Counted from the stretch's first letter, positions 21,040 through 45,630 are shown. The stretch is DNA of 64,000 nucleotides from an uncultured Bdellovibrionales bacterium (GCA_964654585.1 CAZZJR010000003.1:4850-68849); one strand, 5' to 3'. Notes: a model not told the origin generated them from the letters alone. Numbers and translations are program-made.

Positions 21040-21058
21040 AAAACCTCAAGGCCTGCGC

Positions 21059-21946: not shown

Positions 21947-21992
21947 ATGAAGGCCCCCCGTAGCTCCTCCTCCGCAACCAGGTTCGGGTACA

Positions 21993-22493
21993 ATGACAGG
22001 GTTAACCATGAGTGAACCAATTGCTACCCCGTACGACATCGTCGACATTCCCTACTTCGCTTGGGAGCCTAGCATCGCCGACTGGCTGCTCGCGCTCGTT
22101 CTCTTCGGAGTCGCCGCCCTCGTCATCGGAGTGGCCGCTCTACTCAAGCGGCGCAACCCTTCGGCGCGCGTGCTTGAGCGCTTGCTTAATCAGCTGGCGG
22201 ACTCACACGTGATCGCCCCCGGAATTGAATGCGAGAGATTCTCCCGTCTGTGCAAACGAATCATCTCGTTTGTCGCATGTGTGGACCTCTCGGGTTGCAC
22301 CGGCCAGGAGCTGCGCGACCTCGCCAACGCCTCAGCGGATGCCCAGGAGGCGGAGGCACTACGGGCGGTAGCCCTGATCGAAGACCGCGCCTACGCCCCA
22401 GCCGAAGCTGCTTCCAGCAAGCCGCTCTCAGAACTTTGCGAGGCGGCGAAGAGGTCATTGTCGGCCTTCGCGTCCGAAAGGAGGCGCCGATGA
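21993..22493 (+). CDS. Hypothetical small membrane protein of the Bat operon
   Basis: 166 aa with one TM helix (WLLALVLFGVAALVIGVAALL). Stop overlaps the batA start (ATGA). Confidence 0.5.
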   Translation: MTGLTMSEPIATPYDIVDIPYFAWEPSIADWLLALVLFGVAALVIGVAALLKRRNPSARVLERLLNQLADSHVIAPGIECERFSRLCKRIISFVACVDLSGCTGQELRDLANASADAQEAEALRAVALIEDRAYAPAEAASSKPLSELCEAAKRSLSAFASERRRR

Positions 22494-23479: not shown

Positions 23480-23506
23480 GAAACCAACTGTTTCCCATCA
23501 GTCGAA

Positions 23507-32802: not shown

Positions 32803-33063
32803 TCACCGCCGCAGTACCCCGATCTTCGCCAGCACCACAGCCGCCGCCCGGAAAAGCTCGCGCGGGATGGGCCGGTCCAGTGGCAGTTCGGCAAGGGAGG
32901 CACACAGCTCAGGTTCTTCAATCACCGGGATACCGTAGCGGCGGGCCACCGCGACCATCTGCGCGGCAAGCTCCTCGCGCCCCACTGCAGCGAGCCTCGG
33001 AGGCTCCTCGTTGTCCGTGGTAGCGTCGAGCGCTGCCGCTTCAAGGTACCTTTCTCTCCTCAT
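32803..33063 (-). CDS. Stand-alone FlhB C-terminal (post-NPTH) domain protein, YlqH/FhlB-domain family
   Basis: The 86-aa sequence AAALDATTDNEEPPRLAAVGREELAAQMVAVARRYGIPVIEEPELCASLAELPLDRPIPRELFRAAAVVLAKI aligns position-by-position with FlhB residues downstream of NPTH (pattern A.AL.YD....AP.V.AKG.G..A..I...A...GIPV.E...LAR.L.....IP..LY.AVA.VLA). Confidence 0.8.
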   Translation of the reverse strand: MRRERYLEAAALDATTDNEEPPRLAAVGREELAAQMVAVARRYGIPVIEEPELCASLAELPLDRPIPRELFRAAAVVLAKIGVLRR

Positions 33064-33165: not shown

Positions 33166-33720
33166 TTAGCTCAAGATCTGTTGGCTCATCTTGTACTGCC
33201 CCGCGTTCAGTATCGGCACGGTGAAGAATATTCCTACAAAGCACGCGATCATGCCGAGGCAAGCAATCACACTCAAAACAAAAACGGTTAGGGCCGCCAT
33301 AAGTAAATTCGGCGCAAGAGCGCGCCAAGCTGCTTTGATCGCCTCGATTGCGTCCTTTTCGCCACGCATCACTATGCACAATGCAACCGGACTGAGTGGC
33401 ATGAGAAGCAACCCAGGGATAATGCACAAGATAAATCCGAGATAGATTGCGCCCCAGACCAATAGAGACACGAGCAGCGAGGGAAGGATCTGCTCTAACC
33501 CGCTCAGGAGGTCTGCTACCTCTGGTGTTCCACCGGCATCGACCTTGGCCATGGCTCGGTAGTACCCTAGGTACAACGGTCCGTAGAGGAGACCGAATGA
33601 GGCTCCGGTTCCAATACCTATAATCAGGACCGAGAGAAGCTGGAATCCAAGCTGTTTCTTTAAACTATCAATCCCATACGAAATGCACTGACCGATATCT
33701 ACCTTGCTCGCCATAGGCAC
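33166..33720 (-). CDS. Hypothetical 4-5 TM membrane protein
   Basis: 184-aa hydrophobic ORF. Co-directional and upstream of the FlhB-C-like gene and the TPK gene. Confidence 0.5.
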   Translation of the reverse strand: MPMASKVDIGQCISYGIDSLKKQLGFQLLSVLIIGIGTGASFGLLYGPLYLGYYRAMAKVDAGGTPEVADLLSGLEQILPSLLVSLLVWGAIYLGFILCIIPGLLLMPLSPVALCIVMRGEKDAIEAIKAAWRALAPNLLMAALTVFVLSVIACLGMIACFVGIFFTVPILNAGQYKMSQQILS

Positions 33721-33910
33721 CTCATCAAATGCTTTTATACGAGCACCGACCGAGCCTCTCTGTCAACGTGCATAAGGAGGTCTTGAGGATGACGACCGCG
33801 GCTGGTCTGCGTAGATCACCTCTAAGGCGACCAAAAAAGAGGGTGCCGTGGAAAGCTCAAGGAGCGAAAAACCACGGCGAGCGGAGTCGACACCGCTTTA
33901 AGGGATCTCT

Positions 33911-34132
33911 TCATGGCAGCAGCTTCAGGTAGAAAGCCGCAATCCCAAGAGCCCCGACAGCGAGTGCCGGTACACTCAAAAACCGAATCATTCGCCACGC
34001 AAGGTTCAAGGTCAGATTGACCATGAGAATCGAGACGAACCAGAGGGCGGCTTGCACCGTCACTGGACAGTCTGTTCGGCTGGCGATGATCTGGAAGAAA
34101 AAATCTGTCCATTTGAGAAATTCGATAACCAT
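33911..34132 (-). CDS. Hypothetical small membrane protein
   Basis: 73-aa ORF with two hydrophobic segments. Weak call. Confidence 0.3.
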   Translation of the reverse strand: MVIEFLKWTDFFFQIIASRTDCPVTVQAALWFVSILMVNLTLNLAWRMIRFLSVPALAVGALGIAAFYLKLLP

Positions 34133-34498
34133 TTTTGGCCCTCTTCACAGGAATCTGTGCTGAGCTGAAAACCCGACTTGAGCTTTCCAACCAGCCGAGG
34201 ATGCATTCGAGCAGCAGCCTAGGCTGGTAGGAGTGGAGCCATCTTCCCGTATGTTGCCGCGGCCCAAGAGAGCCAACGACGGATGTCGACGGGGAGTGTG
34301 TCACCTTCTGGGGGCTGAGGAGCGCTGCTGAGAGTTCAGATACCGCCTATGGGCAGAAACGAGGCCTCTTTTCCCTCACGTTCGGCTCTTTCATCCACGA
34401 ACACCCGATCGAACTGTATCTGAATCTCTCTCTAGCCCCCCTCATACGAGCGTTCAGTTACTATCCCTGTTAATCAACTCGGCGGAGAGTCCCAAGCT

Positions 34499-35482
34499 AT
34501 GCTGCACCACCAGGCCACAAAAATTCCAATCAACCCAATCAAAGGAGAATTTCCGGCCTCTGGCCCAAGCCTGCAGTCCTTGCGTTTTCCACGACCCGAA
34601 ACGGCCAACACTCGCCAGCCTGAGAGCAACACTAAGGCACCGCCTCAGCAAAGCCCGACCAGGCTGCAGCGCCTCGCCTCACAGGCGAAGTCGCTCGGCA
34701 TCTCATCTCTCCGCCTCGCAGGAGATGCCCTGATGTGGAGCGGCGATAAGCTACGAGCCCTAGCAGACGGCTTCGTCTCCGAACCTACACCTCAAGGACC
34801 CGTCGACGCTCTTCTGAGTCGTGCAACGTCGGGCGCGCCTGATAGTTGGCAGCCTCCTTTCGCTCCGGTCGGGAGGTCTTTAAGGGCCGTCGTTACAGAG
34901 GCATGCCGTAGCGGGCTCTCACTCTTGCAGCCCTCTTTCATAAAGGAGTCGCGGAAGATCATGGGCTACGAGACAGGAATTCTCAAAAAGAGCTCCGCTG
35001 TGTTAGCTCAAATTGCGAAGGGCCTTCCGAACCGAGCCGGTACGCATATCACTCCAGAGCGCATTCGAGCACTGCCCCACGAGTACAACGATCCCTATCT
35101 ACAGAAGACTTTTCATCAGCTACGAAGAGAATACTTTCCGAAAAGATCCGACCTTGATGACTACAAAGTTGTTTGGCGAGACCACCCGATGCACCCCGCA
35201 CGGGGAAAAGTGGCGGATGACCAGGTACACGGGTACATTTTGTACGGAACACGCACCATTCATATCGGGCGAGAGATGTCACATCCCGACGCAAAGAAGT
35301 GGATCCCGGCGCTCATTCACCACGAGCTGAGCCACGCCGTGCTTGACGGATTTCTCTCGCCACAGCAGGACGCGCACGATGAGTGGTTTAAGCGCCTCAA
35401 CCTCAAGCACCCAGACGCGCGGGGGTTCTTGGAGTGGCGAGGATGGCACGACTGCTTTCGCAGCTACCACCAGCCAACCTGA
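34499..35482 (+). CDS. HExxH zinc-metallohydrolase-like protein (DUF45/SprT/WLM-like) with a disordered N-terminus
   Basis: C-terminal motif ALIHHELSHAVLDGF...HDEWFKRL matches the DUF45/SprT pattern HEL.H...(n)H..F. The N-terminal 150 aa are low complexity, so the true start may be internal (for example M at about 34733 or 34961). Confidence 0.55.
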   Translation: MLHHQATKIPINPIKGEFPASGPSLQSLRFPRPETANTRQPESNTKAPPQQSPTRLQRLASQAKSLGISSLRLAGDALMWSGDKLRALADGFVSEPTPQGPVDALLSRATSGAPDSWQPPFAPVGRSLRAVVTEACRSGLSLLQPSFIKESRKIMGYETGILKKSSAVLAQIAKGLPNRAGTHITPERIRALPHEYNDPYLQKTFHQLRREYFPKRSDLDDYKVVWRDHPMHPARGKVADDQVHGYILYGTRTIHIGREMSHPDAKKWIPALIHHELSHAVLDGFLSPQQDAHDEWFKRLNLKHPDARGFLEWRGWHDCFRSYHQPT

Positions 35483-35548: not shown

Positions 35549-38500
35549 CTAGTCAGGGTCGAGCGGATCGATTCTGACCCGCAGCCGCTGAAGCGCGGTC
35601 TCGACTGCCCATACGCCAACAGGTTTGTCGACGTACTCGATTCGTGACGAGGGCTCGACTGACCCGACCCACTCGGGAATAGACGATGCAATACCGAGAA
35701 TACAAAGTTCAGGATTCTCCTCAAGCAGTTCGGAGCACAACCTCGCCGCAGACCCTCCTATCGTATCGAGGTCAACTGCGACGAAACCGTAGGCAGATGA
35801 TTCCCGCTTCAGTATCTCTCGCACCTGGTGCCCGTCGTACGCTGCGCGCGCCCTACAACCTAACGAATCGAACAGCGACGCAAAGTACGGCTGAACTCCT
35901 GTCTCCATGCCCAGCATGAGAATGCCATTCCTCGCGCCTCGCGCGGCCGCAACAGCCCCGCCACCCGAGCCCGTACCCGATCGAACGCTAAGAACCGGAA
36001 GGTATACGCTGAAGGATGCCCCCCGACCCTGAAGGCTATCCACGGTTACCACACCTTCGTGCTGCTTAATAATCGAGTAAGCTGACGAGAGCCCTAGTCC
36101 CGCTCCGCTGAGGCCAACCCCGGTTGCCTTATCCACATTCTTGGTAGTGTAAAATGGCTCGAAGCAACGGGCACGCTGCTCTTCAGACATACCGACACCG
36201 TTGTCTCGTACCTCAAGCCGGATGTAGACGCCCGGCGCTAGCTCGGGGTGAACTTCACCAGAACGTAGCTTCACCTTGCGCGTGGCGATGGTGACTTCTC
36301 CCGGGGAATCCGGCGTTATCGCGTCCTTTGCGTTTGCGAGCAGCGCAGTGAGCACCTGCTGGAGCTGTGAACTATCCCCTATAATCTCTGGGCAATCAGC
36401 CGCGAGGTCCACAATGAGCCTAATCCGACGGCCGAGAAGAGACTCGAAGAGTTGTGACGCCCCTTGGACGAGGGTGTTAATCGAGATGCTCTGCCGGGCA
36501 GGCGCTGCTTGCGTTGAGAAATTCAGCAGCTGCGAGACTAGGCTAGCGCCGCGCTTAGCCGCCTCTGTAATGAGCTGCGCGGATTCCGCGGACTGCGAGC
36601 CCGGTGGAGACTGGAGCTCAATCAAAGAAACCTGCCCAAGAATGGCCTGGAGCAAGTTGTTGAAGTTGTGCGCCACCCCAGACGCGAGGAGCCCCGCCAT
36701 TCGCATCTTAAACGATTCTGACATCTTCTGCTCGAAGCGCCGAGCCATAAAGACAGTCGCCATCTCGCTGGCAACTGTCACCAGAAGCTGCAACCGTCCC
36801 TCGCGCACGAATGCGCCGGGCGCCTTCGGTTCGACGACCATAGCGCCGACTACCTGTCCGAGAGAGACGAGCGGAATGACAACGAGAAGATCACACGAGA
36901 GCTGCCGCATGACGTCATTCAGCCCTGAGCACTCCATTGGCTGCCCACCTCGAATCGTGACTGGCCTCTGAGTTCGAATCGCCTCATCGAGGAAGTCGTG
37001 CCGCAGTGCGAGCTCAACCTGAACCTCCTTGAGCGTCTTCTTTACCCCAGGACCGAAGCCAGCCTGGCCAGCAAGATGGGTGCCTGGCTCATTCATGATG
37101 CCAAGCCAGCCACGCTTTAGGCCAAAATCCTGCTCGAGGATAGGAAAGGTATGTTGCGCGATCTCGGCGACAGTGCGGTGCTTTCCGAGCTCCTGGCTCA
37201 CCCGATAGAGTGCGCTGAGAGCTTCGTTGTGTCGCCGCTCACTCTCAAACAGCTCTGCTTGGCGAACAGCCAAAGAAATCTGAGCAGCTGCGGCCTGCGC
37301 TAAATCACAATCGGCTTCTGCAAATGAGTTCGCTGCGCGCTTGAAGAGCACCAGTGCCCCTAGCACCTGCCCCTCAGCAGCTAGCGGCACTACTATGGCT
37401 CCGCGCACATTCTCCATCTTGGCAAGGGCAACAATCGCCCTTGAGTCAGATTGGAGATCCGGGACCACAATCCCTTCCCCAGTTTGTACAACGTGGCTCA
37501 GCAGGCTCGGACCGGTAAGCACTGGCCCCATCTTCTCGATGTACTTCTCGGACAGACCCTGCGCTGCTACTACCTCCAGCTCGGCGCCGTCGGGACGAGT
37601 CAATACTGCATAGCCACAGTGTGCTCCTGTCGCGCTCAGCACGGCTTTGAGCCCTTTAAAGGTTATTACCGCTGGGTCGATCTGGCCCTGCAGTGAGCGG
37701 GCAACCTCGAACAGCGCCTCCAGTCGACGGTTCTGGGTCACGAGCGCGTCCTGTGCCTGCCGACGGTCGGTAATGTCGATACCGAACCCTTCCCAGCCGA
37801 GGAACGTCCCTTGCGCTGAGAAGTGGGGGATCGCTCGAAGCATCATCCATCGCGCTTCACCACTCTGTTGGTGAATAACCCGAACCTCTTCACGCAGCTC
37901 GTCTCTCTCAACTCGCAATCGGGTTATCCGTCGCCGCAGCATCTCACGGTCCCGCGGATCGAGTATCGAGTCCCAGATTCCAGCATTGCTCAGCATCTGC
38001 GAGGCTGGTATCCCGAGAATCTGCTCGGTGTTGCCAAATACGTCTGTGATGCGGAACTGCGCATCGGTCATCAAGATGATGATGTTGCCGTAGCGCGCCA
38101 TACGACGGTATTGGCCGCGCAGGTCTTCGCCAGCGACGGGCGAACTCGTCACTTGCTGCGGCACACCATTCTTGCTTCCGAGTCCCAAGCTACGGCCAAT
38201 CTCGGCGAAGGCATCCAACTCCTCTTGGCGCCAACGATGGTACGAGCGCGTGTAGAAGCACTCCACAGAGCCCGACAGACGACCGTCGATAACTATCGGG
38301 AAAACGCCACCCGAGCGAACTTTGCGGACAGCAAGTTCGAGCGCCAAATCGCCCGAAACCCTGGCCCGCTGAAGGTCATTAATTACTATTGGCAGGGTCC
38401 ACGTGCGGCCTGCAAATGAGGCAAGTCCCTCATTGAGAACGAAGATCGGAAGCTGCACACCCTGCCCATCCGTCGGACGCTTTGGGTACGAACCCACACA

Positions 38501-38659
38501 AGGTGCATTCTGATGGACGAGCGTGACCGTTACGCGGTCGCAACCGATCTCATGCGCGATCGACTCGGCAAGATGAGCGGCCACCGCTTCCGGCGTGGCA
38601 TGCGGTCCAGTTTCAAACCGCAATTTCCTGACCGTGCTTTCGCTGGCGTCTTGCCCCAT
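35549..38659 (-). CDS. Multi-domain hybrid sensor histidine kinase (GAF/PAS/GAF - HisKA - HATPase_c - receiver-like)
   Basis: 1036 aa. H-box SGVAHNFNNLLQAILG, ATPase N/G boxes (RLEVRDNGVGM, GVGLSGAGLGLS) and a C-terminal receiver-like domain (FVAVDLDT). Several GAF/PAS-like sensory modules lie N-terminal. Starts 50 nt downstream of the truncated flhB. Confidence 0.85.
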   Translation of the reverse strand: MGQDASESTVRKLRFETGPHATPEAVAAHLAESIAHEIGCDRVTVTLVHQNAPCVGSYPKRPTDGQGVQLPIFVLNEGLASFAGRTWTLPIVINDLQRARVSGDLALELAVRKVRSGGVFPIVIDGRLSGSVECFYTRSYHRWRQEELDAFAEIGRSLGLGSKNGVPQQVTSSPVAGEDLRGQYRRMARYGNIIILMTDAQFRITDVFGNTEQILGIPASQMLSNAGIWDSILDPRDREMLRRRITRLRVERDELREEVRVIHQQSGEARWMMLRAIPHFSAQGTFLGWEGFGIDITDRRQAQDALVTQNRRLEALFEVARSLQGQIDPAVITFKGLKAVLSATGAHCGYAVLTRPDGAELEVVAAQGLSEKYIEKMGPVLTGPSLLSHVVQTGEGIVVPDLQSDSRAIVALAKMENVRGAIVVPLAAEGQVLGALVLFKRAANSFAEADCDLAQAAAAQISLAVRQAELFESERRHNEALSALYRVSQELGKHRTVAEIAQHTFPILEQDFGLKRGWLGIMNEPGTHLAGQAGFGPGVKKTLKEVQVELALRHDFLDEAIRTQRPVTIRGGQPMECSGLNDVMRQLSCDLLVVIPLVSLGQVVGAMVVEPKAPGAFVREGRLQLLVTVASEMATVFMARRFEQKMSESFKMRMAGLLASGVAHNFNNLLQAILGQVSLIELQSPPGSQSAESAQLITEAAKRGASLVSQLLNFSTQAAPARQSISINTLVQGASQLFESLLGRRIRLIVDLAADCPEIIGDSSQLQQVLTALLANAKDAITPDSPGEVTIATRKVKLRSGEVHPELAPGVYIRLEVRDNGVGMSEEQRARCFEPFYTTKNVDKATGVGLSGAGLGLSSAYSIIKQHEGVVTVDSLQGRGASFSVYLPVLSVRSGTGSGGGAVAAARGARNGILMLGMETGVQPYFASLFDSLGCRARAAYDGHQVREILKRESSAYGFVAVDLDTIGGSAARLCSELLEENPELCILGIASSIPEWVGSVEPSSRIEYVDKPVGVWAVETALQRLRVRIDPLDPD

Positions 38660-38708
38660 GAGATATCCACTACCGGCCCGAAACTACTCCGAGCCTTCCT
38701 TGCTGCCA

Positions 38709-39488
38709 TTACTTGCTACGAGGTGCGCGACGCACCACAACTACCTTCGAGCGCCGAACCCGGCGCTCAAGATCCGCAAACACGAGCGCAGCATGCTCGT
38801 GCTTCCGGGATGCCTTCAGGTGCGGATCCCCTTCTCCCTCTTTGAGCTCCTCACGCAGCTCGTGCAACGACATCCGGTGCTGGCGGAAGAACCTCCAGCG
38901 GGTGAAGCCGTACGCGATTACCGCAACGAGCGACAACAGAATGGCAACCCGCACAGCGAGCCCCCAGACCATTGCCCCCAGTAGTCCGAGCATTTGCTGC
39001 CGTTCAACCGCTAGGAGAACACGAGAGTGCATCGCTAGCGCAACGAAGGCGGGCGTCACCGCCAGCACCAATCCGACCAGGCGAACCAACCCCAACGCGC
39101 CCTCCACGAAGCCTTGCTTCACACGGGAAAGGTACGAGCCAGGTCGTAGTCGCTGAAAACCTTGTAACAGAAGCGAGGGGACGATGAGCGCCCGGCTCTG
39201 AGCCAACTCCAGGACTACGGCACTCACAGCAACCGCCCCGATAGCGAGGGCGACAACCCGGAACCCATCAAGCAGCGCCGCTTTAAGCACCAGCTCTGGG
39301 GCCCACAACTCGCAATTCAACCATTGTATCAAGGAACCACCCCTCACCCAAGAAAGAGTTCCCGCTAGACAGAGCGTCGCTCCCCAACATCCGGAAGCAA
39401 GGGCAACCCATTGTGTTTTAACGACTTTTCCCTCCCTCTCAAGCCTACCCAAGCGCCTTGCAGAGGGTGGAAACTGCTTCTCTGACAT
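38709..39488 (-). CDS. FlhB/SctU-family export-gate protein, truncated at the NPTH autocleavage position (N-terminal membrane domain plus linker only)
   Basis: N-terminus SEKQFPPSARRLGRLEREGKVVKTQ matches FlhB (EKTEQPTPKRLEKAREEGQVPRS). Four TM helices, then the linker HELREELKEGEGDPHLK (compare FlhB ...EFKQSEGDPHVKGR). The ORF stops at ...KVVVVRRAPRSK exactly where ...VIVTNPTH is expected. The likely start is ATG at 39488, overlapping the fliR stop (TGATG). Confidence 0.8.
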   Translation of the reverse strand: MSEKQFPPSARRLGRLEREGKVVKTQWVALASGCWGATLCLAGTLSWVRGGSLIQWLNCELWAPELVLKAALLDGFRVVALAIGAVAVSAVVLELAQSRALIVPSLLLQGFQRLRPGSYLSRVKQGFVEGALGLVRLVGLVLAVTPAFVALAMHSRVLLAVERQQMLGLLGAMVWGLAVRVAILLSLVAVIAYGFTRWRFFRQHRMSLHELREELKEGEGDPHLKASRKHEHAALVFADLERRVRRSKVVVVRRAPRSK

Positions 39489-40237
39489 CAGCCCCCCTCC
39501 CCCGACCCCACCAGCCACCCACCGAGAAGGCCGCCCTGTCGTGCCACGGGGAGCGGTGGGAGTCCGCACACCAGGTCGAGCAGCAGCGCCATAAGCACGA
39601 AGGTGAGAACCCCTTTTGCGATCGAACCGCCCTGAGTGAATTGAAGCCCGCGCACTAACCTGCCAGCTGCCGCTACGACGATGTCAACCATGAGGAACCC
39701 CGCCAACCAGAGGCCGGATATCCCAATCGCTCCCGACAGAATAGAAACGCTCCAACGCAAGAGGTCGTGCGCGCTCTGCATCCCACGCCACGGCGCCCCA
39801 AGAGGAAACACCTCATAGCTATTCGCAAGTTCTCTCAAGGTCACCTCAAGCGCTCCGAGGTACACTGCAACGCCAACTGAAGCCGCTCGACAGATAGCCG
39901 CCAGGTCCGATGCTCCTTGACCACCCAGTGGATCGACCACGGCTGAAATAGTTTGACCGCGCGATGTGTCTACTACCTCTCCACACAGCTCAGCAGTGTC
40001 GGAGAGGAGCCTCAATGGACCCGCTAGGAGTGCACCAACCGCAAACTCCCAGACGCACGAGAGCACCGAGAGGTCTTCGGCAACGGCTACTGATCCGAGC
40101 AGCGACCATGCTAATGCAAGGGCCACGAGCAGCCGCGGGACTGGCTGCATCGAGTCTCCGAATGGCAAGCACGCCAAAACACCGAAAGAGCGAGCCGCGA
40201 GCGCACACAAGAGAAGAGTCGTGTGCTCATCGATCAC
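39488..40237 (-). CDS. FliR/SctT-family export-gate protein
   Basis: 249 aa with 6-7 TM helices and a central DTSRGQTISAVVDPL-type loop typical of FliR. ATGA overlap with fliQ. Confidence 0.75.
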   Translation of the reverse strand: MIDEHTTLLLCALAARSFGVLACLPFGDSMQPVPRLLVALALAWSLLGSVAVAEDLSVLSCVWEFAVGALLAGPLRLLSDTAELCGEVVDTSRGQTISAVVDPLGGQGASDLAAICRAASVGVAVYLGALEVTLRELANSYEVFPLGAPWRGMQSAHDLLRWSVSILSGAIGISGLWLAGFLMVDIVVAAAGRLVRGLQFTQGGSIAKGVLTFVLMALLLDLVCGLPPLPVARQGGLLGGWLVGSGEGG

Positions 40238-40497
40238 GGCAACTCCACAGCTGGCTGAGCTATCGACGATACAATCCCGAGAAAAAGCCGCTCAATCTCC
40301 CAAAAGGCCGCCCCTCCACCGAAGAGCAACAGGGCTGCCATGATCGTGATTCTTGCCAGGTGCACGATGCTTTGCTCTTGGACCTGGAGCATCGCCTGAA
40401 CGAGTGAAACCGCACCTGCCCCAAGCGCGATCGCAACGAGGGGAACGAAAGAAAGAATAGCGGCCACAAAGAGCCCGTGCTCCACTGCCGTCTCCAT
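40234..40497 (-). CDS. FliQ/SctS-family export-gate protein
   Basis: 87-aa two-TM hairpin protein (FVAAILSFVPLVAIALGAGAVSLVQAMLQVQEQSIVHLARI), a textbook FliQ layout. Confidence 0.8.
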   Translation of the reverse strand: METAVEHGLFVAAILSFVPLVAIALGAGAVSLVQAMLQVQEQSIVHLARITIMAALLLFGGGAAFWEIERLFLGIVSSIAQPAVELP

Positions 40498-40506
40498 ACA
40501 CGAATC

Positions 40507-41166
40507 TCACCCGTAGCTTCGCACTAGGCCGTCAGCAAGCAACAGCCAGCCGTCGGTCGAAATGAACAGAAGAATTTTAAGCGGTACGCTTACTACCACA
40601 GGGCTGAGCATCGTGAGCCCCATGCCAACTAGAAGGTTTGAAACGATCAAGTCTACCACGAAGAATGGGATGAGAAGAAAAAAACCCGTCACGAAGGCGC
40701 GCTTGATCTCCGAAAGCACGAAGCTGGCCAACAGTATCGGGAAGCCATCTCCCTGCGGGGCTTCGACCACCGGCACGGTGTGCCTGTTTCTAAGCTCTCG
40801 AAATACGGCGAGCTCTCGCGACCCGCAGTGTTTCTCAAGAAAATCTCGCCAGGGCACAAGGACCGAAGCAGCCTCTGACAGCAAGGCTGGCACCGGCTGA
40901 GCTGCAAGCCTATCGACTCGCACCCCTTTGATACGCTCAGCAGTGCTCTCCAACACTGGCTGCATCACGACGAGCGACATCACCAGCGAAAGCGCCATCA
41001 CCATCGAGGAGCTCGGAGCCTGTTGGGTTCCAAATCCGCTCTTGAGCAACGTGAGCACGATTGAAAACTTGAGGTAACAGGTGCCAACTGATATCAGCAG
41101 TGGCACGAGAGCCACGACTACCGACGCGAGAAGCAGCGACTCAGGGGACGAGAGCTTCATCTTCAT
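40507..41166 (-). CDS. FliP/SctR-family export-gate protein
   Basis: 219 aa. FliP signatures LKSGFGTQQAP and PFFVVDLIVSNLLVGMGLTMLSP. Confidence 0.9.
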   Translation of the reverse strand: MKMKLSSPESLLLASVVVALVPLLISVGTCYLKFSIVLTLLKSGFGTQQAPSSSMVMALSLVMSLVVMQPVLESTAERIKGVRVDRLAAQPVPALLSEAASVLVPWRDFLEKHCGSRELAVFRELRNRHTVPVVEAPQGDGFPILLASFVLSEIKRAFVTGFFLLIPFFVVDLIVSNLLVGMGLTMLSPVVVSVPLKILLFISTDGWLLLADGLVRSYG

Positions 41167-42058
41167 CCCTCCGGCGACTTCGGCGTTGGGCTGCTGGCCA
41201 ACCTGTAGACAGGCTTGCGTTCTCAGGCGCTCCCTTTAACACCGCTACACTCTGTACCTGAACCCCGGCTCGTATCAATTCGCGCACAACTGCCCCACGC
41301 TCTTTCAGAAGCATCGTAAGGAGCTCCGGAAAAGCAGCTCGCAGCACGACCGAGACCCCCTCCGAACCGCGCTGACTCACTGTTAAGCTCACCGGACCGC
41401 CCCCGGTGACATGCGCACAAGCAACTTTCAGCGTATCCCCCTCTGTGTTTTCGCACGGTGCCGCCTGACACACTGCGGTACGGGGTATTCCTGCATCCCC
41501 TTGGGCGCCCGACTCCTCTGGTAAGTGTCTGGGCGAGAGGTTCAATGCTGCTGGTACGCCGGTCCGAGCCCCCTCATCCTGCAAGCCTCTATCGCTGGCA
41601 GAACTATTAAGGCTCTCCGAGACCCCCTCGCTCACCCGCGTTCGCGCGCGTAGAACCCTCTGAGTTAGGAACATTTCAAGGGAGTCTTCGCTCTGACGCG
41701 ACTCCACAGCAGCTATGTCTTTCCGTCGGCACGCAGCCAACATCGCCACGACCTGCTCTCGCACCGACTCAGCTTTTTGGGTGGCACGGCTCTGCTTTTT
41801 CAATGCTCCCAGCGCCTGAGCATGCAGCTGCTGAGCCTGACTCAGGGCGCGATGCGCACTCAGCGGCCTATCGATACCGCCGATGTGTCCAGAGCCCGAG
41901 GCAACCCGGGCAATCTCGCTCCAGAGCACCCCCTCCGCTCGCTGCACCTGCTCTCGGCGGGTCACCTCTGCTCTATGGATAGAGCAGAGCCGAGCCTCCT
42001 CTCTCCGGCACTGAAGCTCAACACACGCTCTCTTCGCTGCTAGGAGGGCACGTTCCAT
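41141..42058 (-). CDS. Putative FliJ(SctO)-like coiled-coil protein fused to, or followed by, a FliK/SctP-like T3S4 (Flg_hook) C-terminal domain. Gene model is uncertain
   Basis: ORF 41141..42271. The first 71 codons are G/R-rich and likely non-coding, so ATG at 42058 (MERALLAAKRACVELQ...) is preferred. Residues about 70-215 are coiled-coil with FliJ-like charge patterning. The C-terminus PVSLTVSQRGSEGVSVVLRAAFPELLTMLLKERGAVVRELIRAGVQVQSVAV resembles the FliK/SctP substrate-specificity-switch domain pattern. An alternative-frame ORF (42067..42372) ends 9 nt upstream of this ATG. Confidence 0.45.
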   Translation of the reverse strand: MERALLAAKRACVELQCRREEARLCSIHRAEVTRREQVQRAEGVLWSEIARVASGSGHIGGIDRPLSAHRALSQAQQLHAQALGALKKQSRATQKAESVREQVVAMLAACRRKDIAAVESRQSEDSLEMFLTQRVLRARTRVSEGVSESLNSSASDRGLQDEGARTGVPAALNLSPRHLPEESGAQGDAGIPRTAVCQAAPCENTEGDTLKVACAHVTGGGPVSLTVSQRGSEGVSVVLRAAFPELLTMLLKERGAVVRELIRAGVQVQSVAVLKGAPENASLSTGWPAAQRRSRRRDEDEALVP

Positions 42059-42559
42059 CTCGACGCTCACTGCGGCTGCTGAAGCTTTCTCACCGAAGCT
42101 ACCCCGCTCTCGGCTACTTTTGAGACGAGCTCGACCTGAACCTGATGCCGGCACACGTCCATCTGGAGCTTGATCATCTCGCTGAGCTGCTTCAATCGAA
42201 GGTCCGCACCGGCGCCCGCTCTTGGGGATCTGTTCGCCCCGCTCAGCGCCTGTTCGAACACCTCCCCCCAACCTGAACCGCTGTTCGCCCCTACAACGGA
42301 CGAAACTGCCTCAGGAACTGCAACCGCTGCTCCCCCCCCTGTTACCCTCATGTTTCTCCTCCTACGAGCCAAGGCGCGCCTAGTGGTACCCCCGATCGGT
42401 GTGACGGCCCGACCTACTGATGAAGTTCGCGGCTCAAGGCCTAAAAGTTTCGGGCTCCGTTCACGCCCTTTTGCCAGTTGGAAAATCCCTTTCCTGGTGA
42501 CTGGTTAGGGGGTAAGAAGAAGGTGTCTTCGCGAGCCTGCGCCGCGGACAAATAAAGCC

Positions 42560-44011
42560 ATGAGCAGATTCATCGACCCAGCCCTGAACAGAAAAATCAT
42601 CTCGTTTGGGTCAAACGTCTTCGCCGACCTCGAAGAGACCGAGGAATCTCCCCTCAGCATGCGCTACTGGAACTCCCAGCTCATGCGTTGGTCGATGTCT
42701 GTGCCCGATTTTAAAGTCAGCCTCTTCCGCCTCGTCGACGTTCTTCCAACTCTGAAGAGCCCCGAGGCGGTGGGCGAGCATGTGCGGCTGTACCTTACGG
42801 AAGCTGCAGGCCGGCTCCACCCCTCGATGGCCTGGCTCGTTGGACTCTCAGACAGCGCTATCGGAAGGTTTGCTACCTCGCTCCTGGTCACTCGCGGTGT
42901 CCGCCAGATGGCGAGCCTCTTTATCGCTGGCGCTGGCCCCAAAGAGGCGCTGAAGCCGCTTCGCCGCTTGCGACGCAACGGGTACTGCTTCACGGTCGAC
43001 CTGCTGGGTGAATTCTGCGTGTGTGAAGATGAGGCTTGTGAGTACCAAGAGAGGTACATCGACGCGCTCAATACCTTCGGTGATGAGGTGCCCTCGTGGA
43101 AGGAAGCTGCTCCGCTCGTCGCAGGGCACCCGGGAGAGCTTAGCCCAGTGTGCATTTCGGTCAAGCTGTCCGCGCTCTACTCCCAAACCAGCTCTCTCAA
43201 CTTCAGACGTAGTGTCGACGTTCTCTCTGAGCGGTTGTCGGAGATCGCTCGCGTTGCACAACGCAGAGGAGCCCTGATGTACGTCGATGCAGAGGACTCG
43301 GGCAACAACCCGATTATCTACGAGTCGTTCAAGCGTGTATTCTCTTCCCCAGAGTTCGCCTCCATTCCCTATCCGGGCATAGTCATCCAAGCCTATGCGA
43401 AAAGTGCTGAGGCCCGCGTACACGAGATGCTCGACTTCGCTCGCACTCGGGGTGCGCCGATAGCGATACGGCTCGTTAAGGGCGCCTACTGGGACCTCGA
43501 ACGAGTCTTGAGCGCCCAGAACGACTGGGAGTTTCCTCTCTGGAGCCAGAAAGAGAGCTCCGACGCCTGCTTCGAGCACCTCTCGCGAATCCTGCTAGAC
43601 AATACGGAGCACTGCTTGCCGGCTTTTGGCTCCCACAACATTCGATCGCTCTCGCACGCGTGCTGCTACGCAGAGCATCGAGGACTTACTCCGAAGGATT
43701 TCGAGATTCAGGTGCTGTACGGGATGGCGGAGCCGATCGCGCACGCCTTCCAGACACGCGGCTACCTGACCAGGATGTACGTACCACTCGGAGACCTCCT
43801 TCCCGGGATGGGATACCTCGTGCGGCGCTTGCTTGAGAACACGTCGAACGAGTCATTCCTGCGCCACACGTTCTTTGATGCTGAGGAGGTCTCGATACTC
43901 CTCAGGGAGCCCCGGTACTCGGAGCCGCACGACTTAACGCAAGACACAAATACTCCCGCTCCTGCCGTCGAGCCGCAGGGTGACGGAGTCGTCATGCACC
44001 TTGACTACTGA
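42560..44011 (+). CDS. Proline dehydrogenase (monofunctional PutA-like)
   Basis: 483 aa with a FAD-dependent PRODH barrel (LVKGAYWD, ...VRRLLEN). Followed by a P5C dehydrogenase gene. Confidence 0.85.
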   Translation: MSRFIDPALNRKIISFGSNVFADLEETEESPLSMRYWNSQLMRWSMSVPDFKVSLFRLVDVLPTLKSPEAVGEHVRLYLTEAAGRLHPSMAWLVGLSDSAIGRFATSLLVTRGVRQMASLFIAGAGPKEALKPLRRLRRNGYCFTVDLLGEFCVCEDEACEYQERYIDALNTFGDEVPSWKEAAPLVAGHPGELSPVCISVKLSALYSQTSSLNFRRSVDVLSERLSEIARVAQRRGALMYVDAEDSGNNPIIYESFKRVFSSPEFASIPYPGIVIQAYAKSAEARVHEMLDFARTRGAPIAIRLVKGAYWDLERVLSAQNDWEFPLWSQKESSDACFEHLSRILLDNTEHCLPAFGSHNIRSLSHACCYAEHRGLTPKDFEIQVLYGMAEPIAHAFQTRGYLTRMYVPLGDLLPGMGYLVRRLLENTSNESFLRHTFFDAEEVSILLREPRYSEPHDLTQDTNTPAPAVEPQGDGVVMHLDY

Positions 44012-44025
44012 TCTGGAGAAGAGCC

Positions 44026-45630
44026 ATGGAAACTATTAGCGCATTCAGGAATCAGCCCCTACGAGACTTCGGCGAGGAAAAAAACAGGGTGGCGATCGAA
44101 TCCGCTCTGACCGAGGTCGAAGCCCTCATCCGCTCCCGCTCCCTCGCCGCCGCGCCGCTCATCTCTGGCTCGAAGCGGAGCGGCTGCGAGATATTCAGCC
44201 GTAAAGATCCGAGCAATCTCAATATCACCGTGGGAACGACTGAATTCGCGTCTGTAGAGCTGGCAGCCGAAGCAATCGAGAGCTGTCGCCGAGGCTTCCC
44301 TGCCTGGCGAGCTACCCCTTTCAGTAAGCGCGCAGCGATTCTTCATGAAGCTGCCTCGATCATGCGCGACAGGTCTGCGTTCCTGACGGCTCTGATTATT
44401 CGCGAGGCCGGGAAACCCTGGAGAGAGGCCGATGCTGATGTCGCCGAGGCGATTGATTTTTGCTCGTACTACGCCGACGAGATTCTTCGGATCAGTCCCG
44501 CCCGAAAAACTCAGGAAGTTCTCGGCGAAGAAAACCTCCTCTTGTACCAGCCGCGCGGCATTGCGGCGGTTATCTCTCCGTGGAATTTCCCTCTAGCGAT
44601 TGCCGCGGGCATGACGGTGGCCGCGCTTGTCGCGGGCAACACGGTAGTGCTCAAGCCCTCGGAGCAAACCGGGCTCATTGCCCAAGAACTGGCCCGAATT
44701 CTCTTCGCTGCGGGCATTCCATCAGACGCCTTGGCGTTTCTCCCAGGTCGCGGGGAAACCGTTGGCAAGCTGCTCGTGGAACACCCGGATACGAGCTTGG
44801 TAGCTTTTACCGGGTCTCGGGCCGTCGGCCTAGAGATCGCGCGCTCAGCGGCTGAAGTCAGGCCAGGGCAACGGGGCTTGAAGCGTGTCATTGCAGAGCT
44901 TGGTGGGAAAAACGCTATTATTGTAGACGATGATGCTGACTTTGATGATGCCGTGCGCGGCGTGCTCCACTCAGCTTTCGGCTTCGCTGGGCAGAAGTGC
45001 TCAGCCTGTTCCCGTTTGATTGTCGTAGGGGACGCGTACGAGCCGTTTCTTGCCAGACTCGCTGCTGCGACCCGAGACGTAATCGTAAGCCGAGCCGAAG
45101 ACCCCTCGGCATTTCTTGGGCCAGTGATAGACGAAGAGAGCCAGTCGCGCATACTCAGCACTGTCTCGGAGGCTCAGGGACAGTGTACGGTCCTTGCACA
45201 AGGTGTCGTGTCCGAAGAGGTTGCTCGCTCCGGCAACTTTGTTCCTCCGACGATCTTCCGCGACGTTTCTACCTCTCACCCGCTCTGGACAGACGAGATC
45301 TTCGGTCCCGTGCTCGCCTGCGCGAAAGCCGAGTCGTTCGAGCAGGCTCTTGAGATGGCTACTGCTTCAGACTATGCCCTAACCGGCGGAGTCTTCTCCC
45401 GACACCCAGGACACATCGCCTTAGCTCGCGAGAATTTTCGGGTCGGGAACCTCTATATAAATCGCGGTATCACCGGAGCGCTCGTAGCTCGCCAGCCGTT
45501 TGGAGGATTCGCCTTCTCCGGAATCGGCTCCAAGGCCGGAGGGCCCGACTACCTGCTTCAATTCCTTGAGCCCCGCGTCGTTACCGAGAACACGATGCGG
45601 CGCGGCTTTACTCCCGACCTCTCAAACTAA
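44026..45630 (+). CDS. 1-pyrroline-5-carboxylate (glutamate-gamma-semialdehyde) dehydrogenase, ALDH superfamily
   Basis: 534 aa. ALDH catalytic Glu/Cys motifs (ELGGKNA, FGFAGQKCSACSR) and its position after PRODH. Confidence 0.85.
   Translation: METISAFRNQPLRDFGEEKNRVAIESALTEVEALIRSRSLAAAPLISGSKRSGCEIFSRKDPSNLNITVGTTEFASVELAAEAIESCRRGFPAWRATPFSKRAAILHEAASIMRDRSAFLTALIIREAGKPWREADADVAEAIDFCSYYADEILRISPARKTQEVLGEENLLLYQPRGIAAVISPWNFPLAIAAGMTVAALVAGNTVVLKPSEQTGLIAQELARILFAAGIPSDALAFLPGRGETVGKLLVEHPDTSLVAFTGSRAVGLEIARSAAEVRPGQRGLKRVIAELGGKNAIIVDDDADFDDAVRGVLHSAFGFAGQKCSACSRLIVVGDAYEPFLARLAAATRDVIVSRAEDPSAFLGPVIDEESQSRILSTVSEAQGQCTVLAQGVVSEEVARSGNFVPPTIFRDVSTSHPLWTDEIFGPVLACAKAESFEQALEMATASDYALTGGVFSRHPGHIALARENFRVGNLYINRGITGALVARQPFGGFAFSGIGSKAGGPDYLLQFLEPRVVTENTMRRGFTPDLSN

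What the first reader, a model, noticed from the sequence alone, without database searches (positions are those of the whole stretch)
35549..42372. Minimal type-III/flagellar-type export gate operon (FliJ/K-like, P, Q, R, truncated FlhB) co-transcribed with a 1036-aa GAF/PAS hybrid histidine kinase, and no ATPase, FlhA/SctV or structural genes in the locus
All six genes are co-directional on the minus strand with overlapping or near-abutting boundaries (TGATG and ATGA overlaps), indicating one operon bounded by the divergent putA promoter region (42272-42559). The gene order fliJ/fliK-like then fliP-fliQ-fliR-flhB follows flagellar logic. However, fliI/sctN, flhA/sctV, fliL/M/N/O and rod/hook genes are absent from the 64 kb, and the locus ends in a sensor kinase rather than flhA. 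This looks like either a degenerate or reduced T3SS, or a repurposed protein-export gate whose expression is tied to a signalling kinase. It is a candidate for a non-canonical export or regulatory system.
Basis: partly seen in the sequence, partly recalled or inferred. Interest (0 to 1): 0.75.

Follow-up and report, generated by a model that had tools for sequence, protein, structure and literature searches.

The report
Split secretion-gate switch gene enclosing a kinase
This locus encodes the core channel of a type III protein-export machine whose switch protein is made as two separate pieces, with a large sensor kinase gene conserved between them. The arrangement recurs in a large group of uncultured bacteria and does not appear to have been described.

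Summary
On the minus strand lie seven co-directional genes: SctI-like rod protein, a FliJ/SctO-plus-SctP-like protein, SctR, SctS, SctT, a FlhB/SctU that stops exactly where the NPTH autocleavage site should be, and a soluble 1036-aa GAF/PAS kinase with a receiver-like end.

So SctU is split, not merely truncated.

In 15 of 20 related species-level MAGs labelled Bdellovibrionota, the order is SctU-N, kinase, SctU-C with short gaps. The window's sub-clade carries a 2.5-3.4 kb insertion before SctU-C. Four much more distant lineages (GC 37-51%; SctR 40-44% and kinase 39-43% identical) keep the same order in unrelated neighbourhoods. A fifth (GC 28.5%) keeps only SctU-N, a short kinase-like protein and SctU-C.

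Of the 150 best 50%-identity cluster representatives matching SctU-N, 121 are about 260 aa and end at the same point.

All genes are under purifying selection, so the locus is not degenerate. No SctV, ATPase or ring genes lie in the 64 kb or within 10 kb of any relative. The rest of the genome could not be checked.

Verdict: a new variant of a T3SS export gate with a built-in kinase.

The parts
42352..42559 (.). Divergent intergenic region between the proline dehydrogenase gene (+) and the first cassette gene (-). AGGAGG lies 7 nt before the ATG at 42351.
   Evidence: Sequence read. No sigma-54 or sigma-28 consensus here or in 25 related upstream regions. No convincing sigma-70 site.
42067..42351 (-). 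SctI-like (inner rod/adaptor) protein, 94 aa. The N-terminus is variable and the C-terminus is nearly invariant: ...VELVSKVAESGVASVRKLQQPQ.
   Evidence: 21 of 22 clade orthologues hit PF17001 (YscI/HrpB/PscI), best E 5.1e-6, all below the gathering score. TIGR02497 SctI gives E 0.001. The same C-terminal motif occurs in L091, L173 and L174. No PDB sequence hit.
41141..42058 (-). 305-aa protein with three regions: an N-terminal long two-helix hairpin (FliJ/SctO-like), a disordered linker, and a C-terminal T3S4 (SctP/FliK switch) domain.
   Evidence: PF02120 FliK-C is hit weakly in 8 of 22 orthologues (best E 4.7e-4). The AF2 single-sequence model (pLDDT 54) has helices 2-53 and 63-119 plus an alpha/beta domain at 209-275. 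In Foldseek against PDB, rank 1 is the PscP switch domain 5cuk (E 4.8e-3, TM 0.56) and rank 2 is FliK-C 2rrl. The L091 orthologue gives a weak FliJ hit (E 0.007).
40507..41160 (-). SctR (FliP family), 217 aa, with no N-terminal signal-peptide extension.
   Evidence: PF00813 E 1.9e-48. NF009438 EscR/YscR/HrcR subfamily scores 188.6 bits (cutoff 179); TIGR01102 SctR scores 170.5 against TIGR01103 FliP at 139.1. The best PDB match is Shigella SpaP at 141.6 bits; FliP chains score 92-118.
40234..40497 (-). SctS (FliQ family), 87 aa.
   Evidence: PF01313 E 3.6e-7. TIGR01403 SctS scores 25.2 against TIGR01402 FliQ at 20.8.
39488..40237 (-). SctT (FliR family), 249 aa. Its GTG start overlaps the sctS stop.
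   Evidence: PF01311 E 1.9e-18. TIGR01401 SctT scores 60.5 against TIGR01400 FliR at 43.5. Junction read.
38709..39488 (-). SctU-N, 259 aa: four transmembrane helices plus the cytoplasmic linker (CN). It ends ...RRVRRSKVVVVRRAPRSK, where canonical proteins read ...VIV-NPTH.
   Evidence: PF01312 positions 2-256 of 335. TIGR01404 SctU scores 86.9 over positions 1-259 of 341. Alignment with six canonical SctU proteins. Residues 202-252 align to the YscU CN cleavage fragment 2ml9_A 7-57 of 58, and to EscU and FlhB chain A of cleaved crystal structures. Hydrophobic segments.
35549..38659 (-). Soluble sensor kinase, 1036 aa. Domain order: N-terminal GAF-like region, PAS, two GAF, HisKA (His664), HATPase_c, and a C-terminal receiver-like domain (Asp963, Lys1012).
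   Evidence: Pfam domains. H, N, G1 and G2 boxes plus D963 and K1012-P are invariant in 22 orthologues. No true transmembrane segment. The C-terminal model has (beta-alpha)5 topology and its best fold matches are Spo0F and ArcA receiver domains. Orthologues in L091, L173, L174 and L176 are 39-43% identical over 866-1028 aa.
33166..35482 (.). Block inserted between the kinase and SctU-C in the window's sub-clade only. It holds a SprT-like 327-aa gene (+), a 73-aa membrane ORF (-), and a 184-aa four-TM protein (-). It is probably not part of the system.
   Evidence: Present in the window, L005-L007, L011 and L012. Absent in L008-L010 and 15 other genomes, where SctU-C follows the kinase directly.
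32803..33063 (-). SctU-C, 86 aa: the CC domain of FlhB/SctU as a stand-alone protein, with no NPTH motif.
   Evidence: PF01312 positions 262-334 of 335, E 3.7e-10. TIGR00789 scores 46.9, TIGR01404 38.3 and TIGR00328 37.2 bits. It aligns to FlhB CC chains 3b1s_B (6-78 of 87) and 3b0z_B. dN/dS is 0.13 against L012 and L005.

Best explanation
The locus belongs to a large, so far undescribed family of type III export-gate cassettes found in uncultured bacteria; the window's own clade is labelled Bdellovibrionota.

The usual gene order is SctI-like, SctO/SctP-like, (FliO-like), SctR, SctS, SctT, SctU-N, sensor kinase, SctU-C, (FHA protein with a C-terminal membrane anchor). The switch protein SctU is genetically 'pre-cleaved'. 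One gene makes the membrane part plus linker and another makes the CC domain, so two genes replace the NPTH autocleavage used by all characterised T3SS.

Shown:
- the identity of the parts;
- the position of the split;
- its conservation;
- purifying selection on every gene;
- operon-like spacing.

Inferred:
- SctRST plus SctU-N form the channel core.
- SctU-C docks non-covalently on the last strand of SctU-N, as the two fragments do after autocleavage.
- The T3S4 domain of the 305-aa protein acts on SctU-C.
- The soluble kinase, made from the same message between the two halves, reads the state of the gate (assembled or switched, or SctU-C bound versus free). It passes this on through a phosphorelay to gene expression, as Campylobacter FlgS reads assembly of the flagellar export apparatus.
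- SctV, the ATPase and the ring proteins are most likely encoded elsewhere in the genome.
For: Parts and split. SctU-N matches the CN fragment of cleaved YscU, EscU and FlhB structures, and SctU-C matches their CC chain.

Conservation in the window's clade:
- 31 species-level genomes carry the locus.
- The kinase follows SctU-N in 24 of 24 whose contig continues.
- SctU-C follows the kinase within 0-400 nt in 15 of 20.

Deep conservation: L091, L173, L174 and L176 keep the same order in unrelated neighbourhoods, with GC 37-51%. In these four the kinase and SctU-C overlap by 8-38 nt, and the gap between SctU-N and the kinase ranges from a 1-nt overlap to 26 nt. L175 keeps only the trio of SctU-N, kinase-like protein and SctU-C.

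The kinase is 39-43% identical across these lineages, like SctR (40-44%) and more than SctT or SctU-N.

Family size: 121 of the best 150 cluster representatives are 240-275 aa. Those inspected (60 C-terminal tails; the upstream EGDP linker motif in the rest) end ...KV(I/V)(I/V)V plus a few residues, and none carries NPTH.

Selection: dN/dS 0.03-0.42. The kinase catalytic boxes are intact in 22 orthologues.

Published precedents:
- Pre-cleaved SpaS is fully functional (PMC4620466).
- The cleaved FlhB C-terminal domain is retained early and lost at the switch in a FliK-dependent way (PMC13344023).
- Cytoplasmic kinases sense the flagellar T3SS, MS ring and rotor (PMC3760246, PMC7064773).
Against: - No SctV/FlhA, ATPase, SctJ/D/Q/L or needle gene lies in the 64-kb window or within 10 kb of the cassette in any Pfam-annotated relative. 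'The rest is elsewhere' is therefore an assumption.
- No direct evidence exists that the kinase touches SctU or the gate.
- No cognate response regulator or Hpt gene lies in the cassette.
- One lineage (L092) has SctU-N followed directly by SctU-C with no kinase, so the split can exist without it.
- In the window itself, and apparently in L017, L023 and L029, SctU-C is no longer adjacent, so strict co-translation is not required.
- The SctI and T3S4 assignments rest on sub-threshold hits and a low-confidence model.
- Monophyly of the split family has only 38% bootstrap support.
Confidence: 0.6

Rival explanations
1. This is an ordinary sub-operon of a complete injectisome-like T3SS encoded elsewhere. 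The kinase is simply a transcriptional regulator of that regulon that once landed in the one place in sctU where a break is harmless. It has no direct physical or mechanistic link to the two SctU halves.
For: T3SS genes are dispersed in Chlamydiae, and T3SS islands in other bacteria carry their own two-component regulators (my own knowledge). Pre-cleaved SpaS works normally, so a break at NPTH is tolerated (PMC4620466). L092 shows the split without a kinase. The window and L005-L012 tolerate 2.5-3.4 kb between the kinase and SctU-C.
Against: The position is kept over divergence down to 27-30% identity in SctU-N, and in five different genomic neighbourhoods. The kinase and SctU-C coding regions overlap in four lineages. 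In L175 the trio stays together even though sctRST are not adjacent. The kinase is as conserved as the channel protein SctR. A neutral insertion would be expected to move or be lost more often.
Confidence: 0.22
2. The cassette is a self-contained T3SS-derived device that works without SctV, an ATPase or basal-body rings. A small gate (SctRST/U-N with an SctI cap) has a detachable SctU-C subunit that controls the kinase, so the machine is mainly a signalling or specialised export module.
For: No other T3SS gene lies within 35 kb and 22 kb of the cassette in the window, or within 10 kb in nine other annotated contexts spanning GC 28-59%. The cassette moves between neighbourhoods as a unit. Where canonical operons have flhA/sctV after flhB/sctU, this family has the kinase.
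Against: Every characterised T3SS needs SctV/FlhA for export (established knowledge). The cassette encodes proteins whose known relatives are themselves exported early substrates (SctI, SctP). It also has a FliJ/SctO-like hairpin, whose known partners are SctV and the ATPase. Three lineages add a protein with a YscD-type cytoplasmic FHA domain, which hints at a basal body. Absence was tested only locally.
Confidence: 0.1
3. These are the flagellar export-gate genes (fliE/fliK-like, fliO, fliPQR, flhB) of these bacteria. The rest of the flagellar regulon is scattered, as in Campylobacter, and the kinase is a flagellar checkpoint kinase.
For: A FliO gene (PF04347) precedes the FliP homologue in L174, with weaker FliO-like genes in L091 and L176. 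There are FliK-C and FliJ Pfam hits. Polar flagellates use two-component systems tied to the export apparatus (PMC7064773).
Against: All R, S, T and U proteins, from the window and from five or six distant cassettes, score higher against Sct models than Fli models. The R protein has no FliP-type N-terminal extension, and its best PDB match is SpaP. The first gene hits YscI, not FliE. No flagellar gene lies in any flank. The N-domain tree places the family next to injectisome anchors, though weakly.
Confidence: 0.07
4. The locus is a decaying remnant of a T3SS with a broken flhB/sctU.
For: SctU is interrupted and the usual partners are missing from the locus.
Against: dN/dS is 0.03-0.42 for all genes including both SctU halves. 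There are no frameshifts. The same break point occurs in 121 cluster representatives. The cassette is conserved across 31 species-level genomes and five deep lineages.
Confidence: 0.01

Closest known systems
Injectisome (non-flagellar T3SS) export apparatus SctR/S/T/U with SctI and SctP
   Same: It has homologues of SctR, S, T and U in the canonical order, preceded by an SctI-like rod protein and a protein with a T3S4 switch domain. The R protein is injectisome-sized. Sct models outscore Fli models throughout.
   Different: SctU lacks NPTH and is encoded as two genes. A 1030-1065-aa kinase sits between them. No sctV, sctN, sctQ, sctL, sctJ or sctD is adjacent. sctQ is missing between the sctP-like gene and sctR. 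Some members carry FliO, which is otherwise flagellar. Only the SctR subfamily model passes its curated cutoff.
Autocleaved FlhB/SctU (YscU, EscU, SpaS, FlhB) and engineered pre-cleaved SpaS
   Same: The two gene products correspond residue for residue to the two cleavage products, TM+CN and CC. Pre-cleaved SpaS is functional (PMC4620466). FlhB-CC behaves as a detachable inhibitory subunit (PMC13344023).
   Different: Here the separation is genetic and constitutive. The catalytic NPTH loop is gone, replaced by a short basic tail on SctU-N and a new N-terminus on SctU-C.
Stand-alone FlhB-C-like proteins (TIGR00789, 'FlhB-like flagellar biosynthesis protein')
   Same: It is an 84-99-aa protein consisting only of the FlhB CC fold. 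This is the best NCBIfam hit of the window's SctU-C (46.9 bits).
   Different: Those proteins accompany an intact FlhB. This was seen here in L108, L132, L141 and L151, next to FlhB with NPDH or NPEH. In this family the partner lacks its own CC domain. The score is far below the family cutoff of 117.
Campylobacter FlgS/FlgR and related flagellar checkpoint two-component systems
   Same: A soluble cytoplasmic histidine kinase whose activity depends on an assembled T3SS export apparatus (PMC3760246, PMC7064773). This is the functional model proposed here.
   Different: FlgS is small, is not encoded inside the gate operon, and has no GAF/PAS array. No homology beyond the kinase core is claimed. 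The link is by analogy only.
Myxococcus xanthus needle-less T3SS*
   Same: It is an atypical, reduced T3SS in a predatory bacterium formerly classed as a deltaproteobacterium (PMC12428579).
   Different: As I recall it (from memory; the paper read here says only that it is needle-less), that system keeps sctV, sctN and ring genes in one cluster, and no split SctU or embedded kinase is reported. I made no sequence comparison with it here.

Membership tests
Non-flagellar T3SS (injectisome) export apparatus | SctR, SctS, SctT and SctU homologues in one operon | tested here: met
   Pfam PF00813, PF01313, PF01311 and PF01312. Sct models outscore Fli models.
Non-flagellar T3SS (injectisome) export apparatus | Scores above the curated NCBIfam equivalog cutoffs for SctR/S/T/U | tested here: not met
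   TIGR01102 170.5 < 208.6; TIGR01403 25.2 < 76.5; TIGR01401 60.5 < 163; TIGR01404 86.9 < 358. Only the subfamily model NF009438 passes (188.6 > 179).
Non-flagellar T3SS (injectisome) export apparatus | SctU carries the NPTH autocleavage motif within one polypeptide | tested here: not met
   SctU-N ends at the position of NPTH. The motif is absent from both halves in the window, in 16 clade members and in six distant cassettes.
Non-flagellar T3SS (injectisome) export apparatus | SctV, the SctN ATPase, SctJ/SctD rings and SctQ/L sorting platform present in the genome | not testable with these tools
   Absent from the 64-kb window and from the 10-kb flanks of ten annotated relatives. The rest of the genomes could not be read.
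Non-flagellar T3SS (injectisome) export apparatus | Inner rod SctI and ruler SctP (T3S4 domain) | tested here: inconclusive
   PF17001 is hit in 21 of 22 orthologues but below threshold. PF02120 is hit in 8 of 22. The two best Foldseek matches are the PscP and FliK switch domains, but from a pLDDT-54 model.
Flagellar T3SS (FliOPQR-FlhB) | FliP with N-terminal signal peptide or extension; FliP, FliR and FlhB models score best | tested here: not met
   The R protein is 217 aa and aligns from residue 8. FliP chains in PDB carry 40-100 extra N-terminal residues. Fli models score lower than Sct models.
Flagellar T3SS (FliOPQR-FlhB) | FliO gene upstream of fliP | tested here: inconclusive
   Absent in the window and its clade. 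PF04347 is on record for L174. A weak hit (E 0.0099) in L091 and none in L176.
Flagellar T3SS (FliOPQR-FlhB) | Neighbouring flagellar genes (fliL/M/N, flhA, rod and hook genes) | tested here: not met
   None in the window or in any annotated flank.
TIGR00789 FlhB-like stand-alone C-terminal domain | Score above the family cutoff, and co-occurrence with an intact FlhB | tested here: not met
   46.9 bits against a cutoff of 117.35. The accompanying SctU has no CC domain of its own.
Hybrid histidine kinase | HisKA H-box plus HATPase_c N, G1 and G2 boxes | tested here: met
   PF00512 and PF02518. His664 and the catalytic boxes are invariant in 22 orthologues.
Hybrid histidine kinase | C-terminal receiver domain with a phospho-accepting Asp | tested here: inconclusive
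   No Pfam or PDB sequence hit. The ArcB, TorS and EspA hybrid-kinase models align into it. The (beta-alpha)5 model has invariant Asp963 at the end of strand 3, and Foldseek top hits are receiver domains at TM about 0.5 and E about 5e-3. The usual acidic pair after strand 1 is missing.

The most novel reading that the evidence does not exclude
The cassette is a third kind of T3SS-derived machine, beside the flagellum and the injectisome. It would be an autonomous gate (SctRST/U-N, SctI, ruler) that works without SctV or an ATPase. Its genetically separate switch domain SctU-C would shuttle between the gate and a dedicated histidine kinase, turning a secretion switch into a two-component signal.
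Probability: 0.1. Interest if true: 0.92.

Novelty: new variant of a known kind. Interest (0 to 1): 0.72.

Why it matters
Autocleavage of FlhB/SctU at NPTH is regarded as a universal feature of type III secretion, and its role in substrate switching has been argued over for two decades. This is a large natural family that has dispensed with the cleavage chemistry and encodes the two products separately. It is a natural counterpart of the 'pre-cleaved' constructs, and it fits the recent proposal that the C-terminal domain is a detachable inhibitory subunit.

The kinase conserved between the two halves suggests a direct wiring of a secretion gate to two-component signalling. That idea can be tested by binding assays and structure prediction.

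The family also mixes injectisome-like and flagellar (FliO) traits and sits near the injectisome branch. It may therefore bear on how non-flagellar T3SS arose. If the carriers are predatory Bdellovibrionota, it may also bear on how they deal with prey.

Tried and rejected
- The exact-protein look-up of the 219-aa SctR ORF found nothing because the true start is two codons later.
- Profile searches of the SctI-like and SctP-like alignments against PDB sequences gave only coiled-coil noise.
- The promoter and terminator scan gave nothing usable between sctU-N and the kinase. A search for sigma-54 or sigma-28 consensus upstream of 26 cassettes found none.
Only low-confidence single-sequence models were obtained.
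Only L093, L096 and L104 carried the cassette.
- The profile search of the protein collection recovered few split members, because candidate retrieval favoured canonical FlhB.
- Cluster look-ups gave no organism names for distant members.
- tblastn of the kinase against 72,556 plasmids found only kinase-core matches and no orthologue.
- Literature searches for a split SctU/FlhB, for a kinase inside a gate operon, or for T3SS in Bdellovibrionota found no description.
- I considered and rejected three readings: an intein or programmed frameshift joining the halves (the kinase is a complete, separately conserved protein with its own start and stop), a pseudogene, and the neighbouring HerA/VirD4-like ATPase as the system's motor (no evidence beyond synteny with housekeeping genes).

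Full report
**What is in the window**

ORF listing and Pfam/NCBIfam scans show seven genes in a row on the minus strand between 35549 and 42351:
- a 94-aa protein (42067-42351);
- a 305-aa protein (41141-42058);
- SctR/FliP (40507-41160);
- SctS/FliQ (40234-40497);
- SctT/FliR (39488-40237);
- a 259-aa FlhB/SctU homologue (38709-39488);
- a 1036-aa kinase (35549-38659).

Gene boundaries overlap or nearly abut (TGATG, GTGA; 49 nt before the kinase). The block is bounded upstream by a divergent proline dehydrogenase gene. Gene calls on identical public contigs agree with these coordinates.

The remaining 48 large ORFs of the 64 kb are housekeeping genes: Der, MnmA, FtsH, CdaA, a BatA-D/MoxR block, NadA, SMC, FtsY, futalosine-pathway genes and others. 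None belongs to a T3SS family.

The FlhB/SctU homologue matches only positions 2-256 of the 335-position Pfam model. An 86-aa ORF 5.6 kb further down the same strand (32803-33063) matches positions 262-334.

Aligned with six canonical SctU proteins, the long fragment ends ...RRVRRSKVVVV plus a short basic tail exactly where the others read ...VIV-NPTH. The small protein begins a few residues before the next strand.

Against PDB sequences, residues 202-252 of the long fragment align end to end with the CN cleavage fragment of YscU (2ml9_A, 7-57 of 58). They also align with chain A of cleaved EscU and FlhB crystals. The small protein aligns with the CC chains of FlhB (3b1s_B, 3b0z_B).

The two genes thus encode the two products that every characterised FlhB/SctU generates by NPTH autocleavage. 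The motif itself is absent. SctU here is split, not truncated.

**Identity of the other parts**

All four gate proteins score higher against injectisome models than against flagellar models:

| Protein | Sct model (bits) | Fli model (bits) |
|---|---|---|
| R | 170.5-188.6 | 139.1 |
| T | 60.5 | 43.5 |
| U | 86.9 | 69.1 |
| S | 25.2 | 20.8 |

Only one SctR subfamily model passes its curated cutoff. The best solved relative of the R protein is Shigella SpaP (141.6 bits, against 92-118 for FliP chains). The R protein also lacks the N-terminal extension of FliP.

The 94-aa protein has a nearly invariant C-terminus (VELVSKVAES..V.S.RKLQQ). It hits the YscI/HrpB/PscI family in 21 of 22 orthologues, always below threshold.

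The 305-aa protein hits the FliK C-terminal (T3S4) family weakly in 8 of 22 orthologues. A single-sequence AlphaFold model (pLDDT 54) shows a long two-helix hairpin, a disordered linker and a small alpha/beta domain. The two best Foldseek matches in the whole PDB are the switch domains of PscP (5cuk) and FliK (2rrl). A distant orthologue gives a weak FliJ hit over the hairpin. So 'FliJ/K-like' is apt, but these two assignments remain provisional.

The kinase is soluble and has GAF, PAS, GAF, GAF, HisKA and HATPase_c domains. Its catalytic boxes are intact in 22 orthologues. Its last 137 residues give no sequence hit. However, they model as (beta-alpha)5 with an invariant Asp at the end of strand 3, and their best fold matches are receiver domains. 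'Hybrid' is therefore likely but not proven.

**Relatives**

The R protein has at least 120 cluster-level relatives at 54-100% identity. A scan of one genome per species returned 31 loci from uncultured freshwater and estuarine MAGs. Most are labelled Bdellovibrionota, Bdellovibrionales or 'Deltaproteobacteria'. The next-best hits, canonical injectisomes of Proteus and Pseudomonas, are only 35-40% identical.

In all 24 loci whose contig continues past SctU-N, the kinase follows. In 15 of 20 with sequence beyond the kinase, the small SctU-C gene follows it within 0-400 nt.

The window and its nearest relatives (L005-L007, L011, L012) carry a 2.5-3.4 kb insertion between the kinase and SctU-C, containing a SprT-like gene and small membrane proteins. 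In three loci SctU-C was not found in the 1-4 kb available. Canonical loci fetched in the same scan have intact SctU of 344-392 aa.

The ancestral arrangement in this clade is therefore sctU-N, kinase, sctU-C.

**Selection**

Against relatives at 81-83% SctR identity, every gene has dN/dS between 0.03 and 0.42, though dS is near saturation. The kinase (88% identical, dN/dS 0.03-0.04) is as constrained as proline dehydrogenase. Both SctU halves are at 0.13-0.22. The locus is not decaying.

**A much larger family**

I ran an exhaustive search of 1.84 billion cluster representatives with the window's SctU-N. Of the 150 best hits, 121 are 240-275 aa and are matched end to end. Every C-terminus inspected (60 of them) ends ...RV(R/K)x(S/A)KV(I/V)(I/V)V plus 2-8 residues, and none carries NPTH. 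Identity to the window goes down to 26%. The few full-length hits cluster apart.

Contexts could be read for six distant members:

| Locus | Gene order |
|---|---|
| L091 | SctI-like, ~300-aa protein, FliO-like, R, S, T, U-N (257), kinase (1026), U-C (99) |
| L173 | As L091 but without the FliO-like gene, plus a downstream FHA protein |
| L174 | As L091, with a Pfam-recognised FliO, plus a downstream FHA protein |
| L176 | As L091, plus a downstream FHA protein |
| L175 | Only U-N, a 543-aa HATPase_c protein and U-C |
| L092 | R, S, T, U-N followed directly by U-C, no kinase |

The downstream protein in L173, L174 and L176 has a YscD-type FHA domain and a C-terminal membrane anchor.

These loci have 28.5-50.6% GC, against 58.7% in the window, and entirely different neighbours. 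Between the window and the four full cassettes, identities are as follows:

| Protein | Identity to window |
|---|---|
| Kinase | 39-43% over 866-1028 residues |
| SctR | 40-44% |
| SctU-C | 36-41% |
| SctT and SctU-N | 27-35% |

In the four full cassettes the kinase and SctU-C reading frames overlap by 8-38 nt.

All four R proteins and six U-N proteins of these cassettes again score higher on Sct than on Fli models. Every U-N match stops at position 258-259 of the 341-position SctU model.

A rough neighbour-joining tree of the N-domain recovers the split family as one group next to the injectisome anchors. Bootstrap support is only 38%.

**How it probably works**

Shown:
- the gate core genes;
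- a genetically pre-cleaved switch protein;
- a ruler-type T3S4 protein;
- an active-looking soluble kinase.

All of these are conserved together and are probably co-transcribed.

Inferred from established T3SS biology: SctRST with SctU-N build the channel. SctU-C binds SctU-N by strand complementation, as the autocleaved fragments do. The T3S4 domain acts on SctU-C.

Three strands of published work make the rest plausible:
- Pre-cleaved SpaS supports normal secretion (PMC4620466).
- The cleaved FlhB C-terminal domain is held early and lost at the switch in a FliK-dependent manner (PMC13344023).
- Cytoplasmic kinases such as FlgS are activated by the assembled flagellar export apparatus, MS ring and rotor (PMC3760246, PMC7064773).

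I therefore propose that the kinase reads the state of this gate, possibly through free versus bound SctU-C, and relays it to transcription. This step is inference only. No partner regulator is in the cassette, and no interaction was tested.

**What could not be settled**

None of the ten annotated contexts has SctV/FlhA, an ATPase or ring genes within 10 kb. In the window, nothing lies within 35 kb on one side and 22 kb on the other. I could not list the remaining genes of any carrier genome.

Several features point to a full machine encoded elsewhere:
- an exported-type rod protein and ruler;
- a FliJ/SctO-like hairpin;
- the YscD-like FHA protein in some members;
- the L175 case, where even sctRST are elsewhere.

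I put about 0.75 on that reading. About 0.1 goes to a self-contained SctV-less device, which would be a new class of T3SS-derived machine, and less to the flagellar reading.

**Novelty**

Searches of the paper library found no description of a split FlhB/SctU, of a kinase embedded in sctU, or of a T3SS in Bdellovibrionota.

The stand-alone FlhB-C family (TIGR00789) is known, but it accompanies intact FlhB. I saw this in five metagenome loci.

I class the finding as a new variant of a known kind. It is of clear interest to T3SS specialists, because it bears directly on what autocleavage is for and offers a testable link between a secretion switch and two-component signalling.

Noticed in passing
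window 29108-31348 (+): A 746-aa soluble P-loop ATPase with weak HerA, VirD4, TraG and TrwB family hits. It lies convergent to the cassette region and is kept as a neighbour in at least 11 related genomes. Whether this is only inherited synteny is unknown.
   Followed up: partly
window 33166-35482: A sub-clade-specific insertion separates the kinase from SctU-C. It holds a SprT-like 327-aa gene on the plus strand, a 73-aa membrane ORF (33911-34132) and a 184-aa four-TM protein with a weak BPSS1780-family hit. Relatives L005-L007 carry an extra 281-aa gene here that the window lacks.
   Followed up: partly
window 1735-4104 (+) and 57094-59223 (-): Two large ORFs (789 and 709 aa) have no Pfam family at E <= 0.001.
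   Followed up: no
window 20068-27333 (+): A MoxR ATPase, a DUF58 protein, two VWA proteins with a BatA N-terminus or TPR repeats, and BatD. This is a complete Bat-type 'aerotolerance' operon.
   Followed up: no
window 42560-45630 (+): Proline utilisation is encoded as two separate genes, proline dehydrogenase with a PutA N-terminal domain and an aldehyde dehydrogenase, rather than as one fused PutA.
   Followed up: no
L108 7864-9258; L113 4249-5678; L132 644-2059; L141 9983-11367; L151 10001-11377: In these metagenome loci an intact FlhB with NPDH or NPEH instead of NPTH is followed directly by a 93-109-aa stand-alone copy of the FlhB C-terminal domain. The copy is about 60-70% identical by eye to the domain it duplicates (the L113 copy is interrupted by unresolved bases).
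   Followed up: partly
L175 4524-7247: In a 28.5% GC contig the only T3SS genes present are SctU-N, a 543-aa protein with just an HATPase_c domain, and SctU-C. No sctRST is adjacent. This trio is the most tightly linked unit of the family.
   Followed up: partly
L092 1-2539: sctR-S-T-U-N is followed by an overlapping 88-aa SctU-C gene with no kinase between them. This shows that the gene split can occur without the kinase.
   Followed up: partly
L173 14309-15367; L174 14419-15426; L176 8349-9290: A 313-352-aa protein sits directly after SctU-C. It has an N-terminal FHA domain that also matches the cytoplasmic domain of the T3SS ring protein YscD, and a C-terminal membrane anchor. It is absent from the window and its clade.
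   Followed up: partly
L174 7992-8321; L091 8070-8357; L176 2047-2403: Small single-pass membrane proteins lie immediately upstream of the SctR gene. They are FliO-like: Pfam FliO is on record for L174, and L091 gives a weak hit. FliO is otherwise regarded as specific to flagella, yet these cassettes are injectisome-like.
   Followed up: partly
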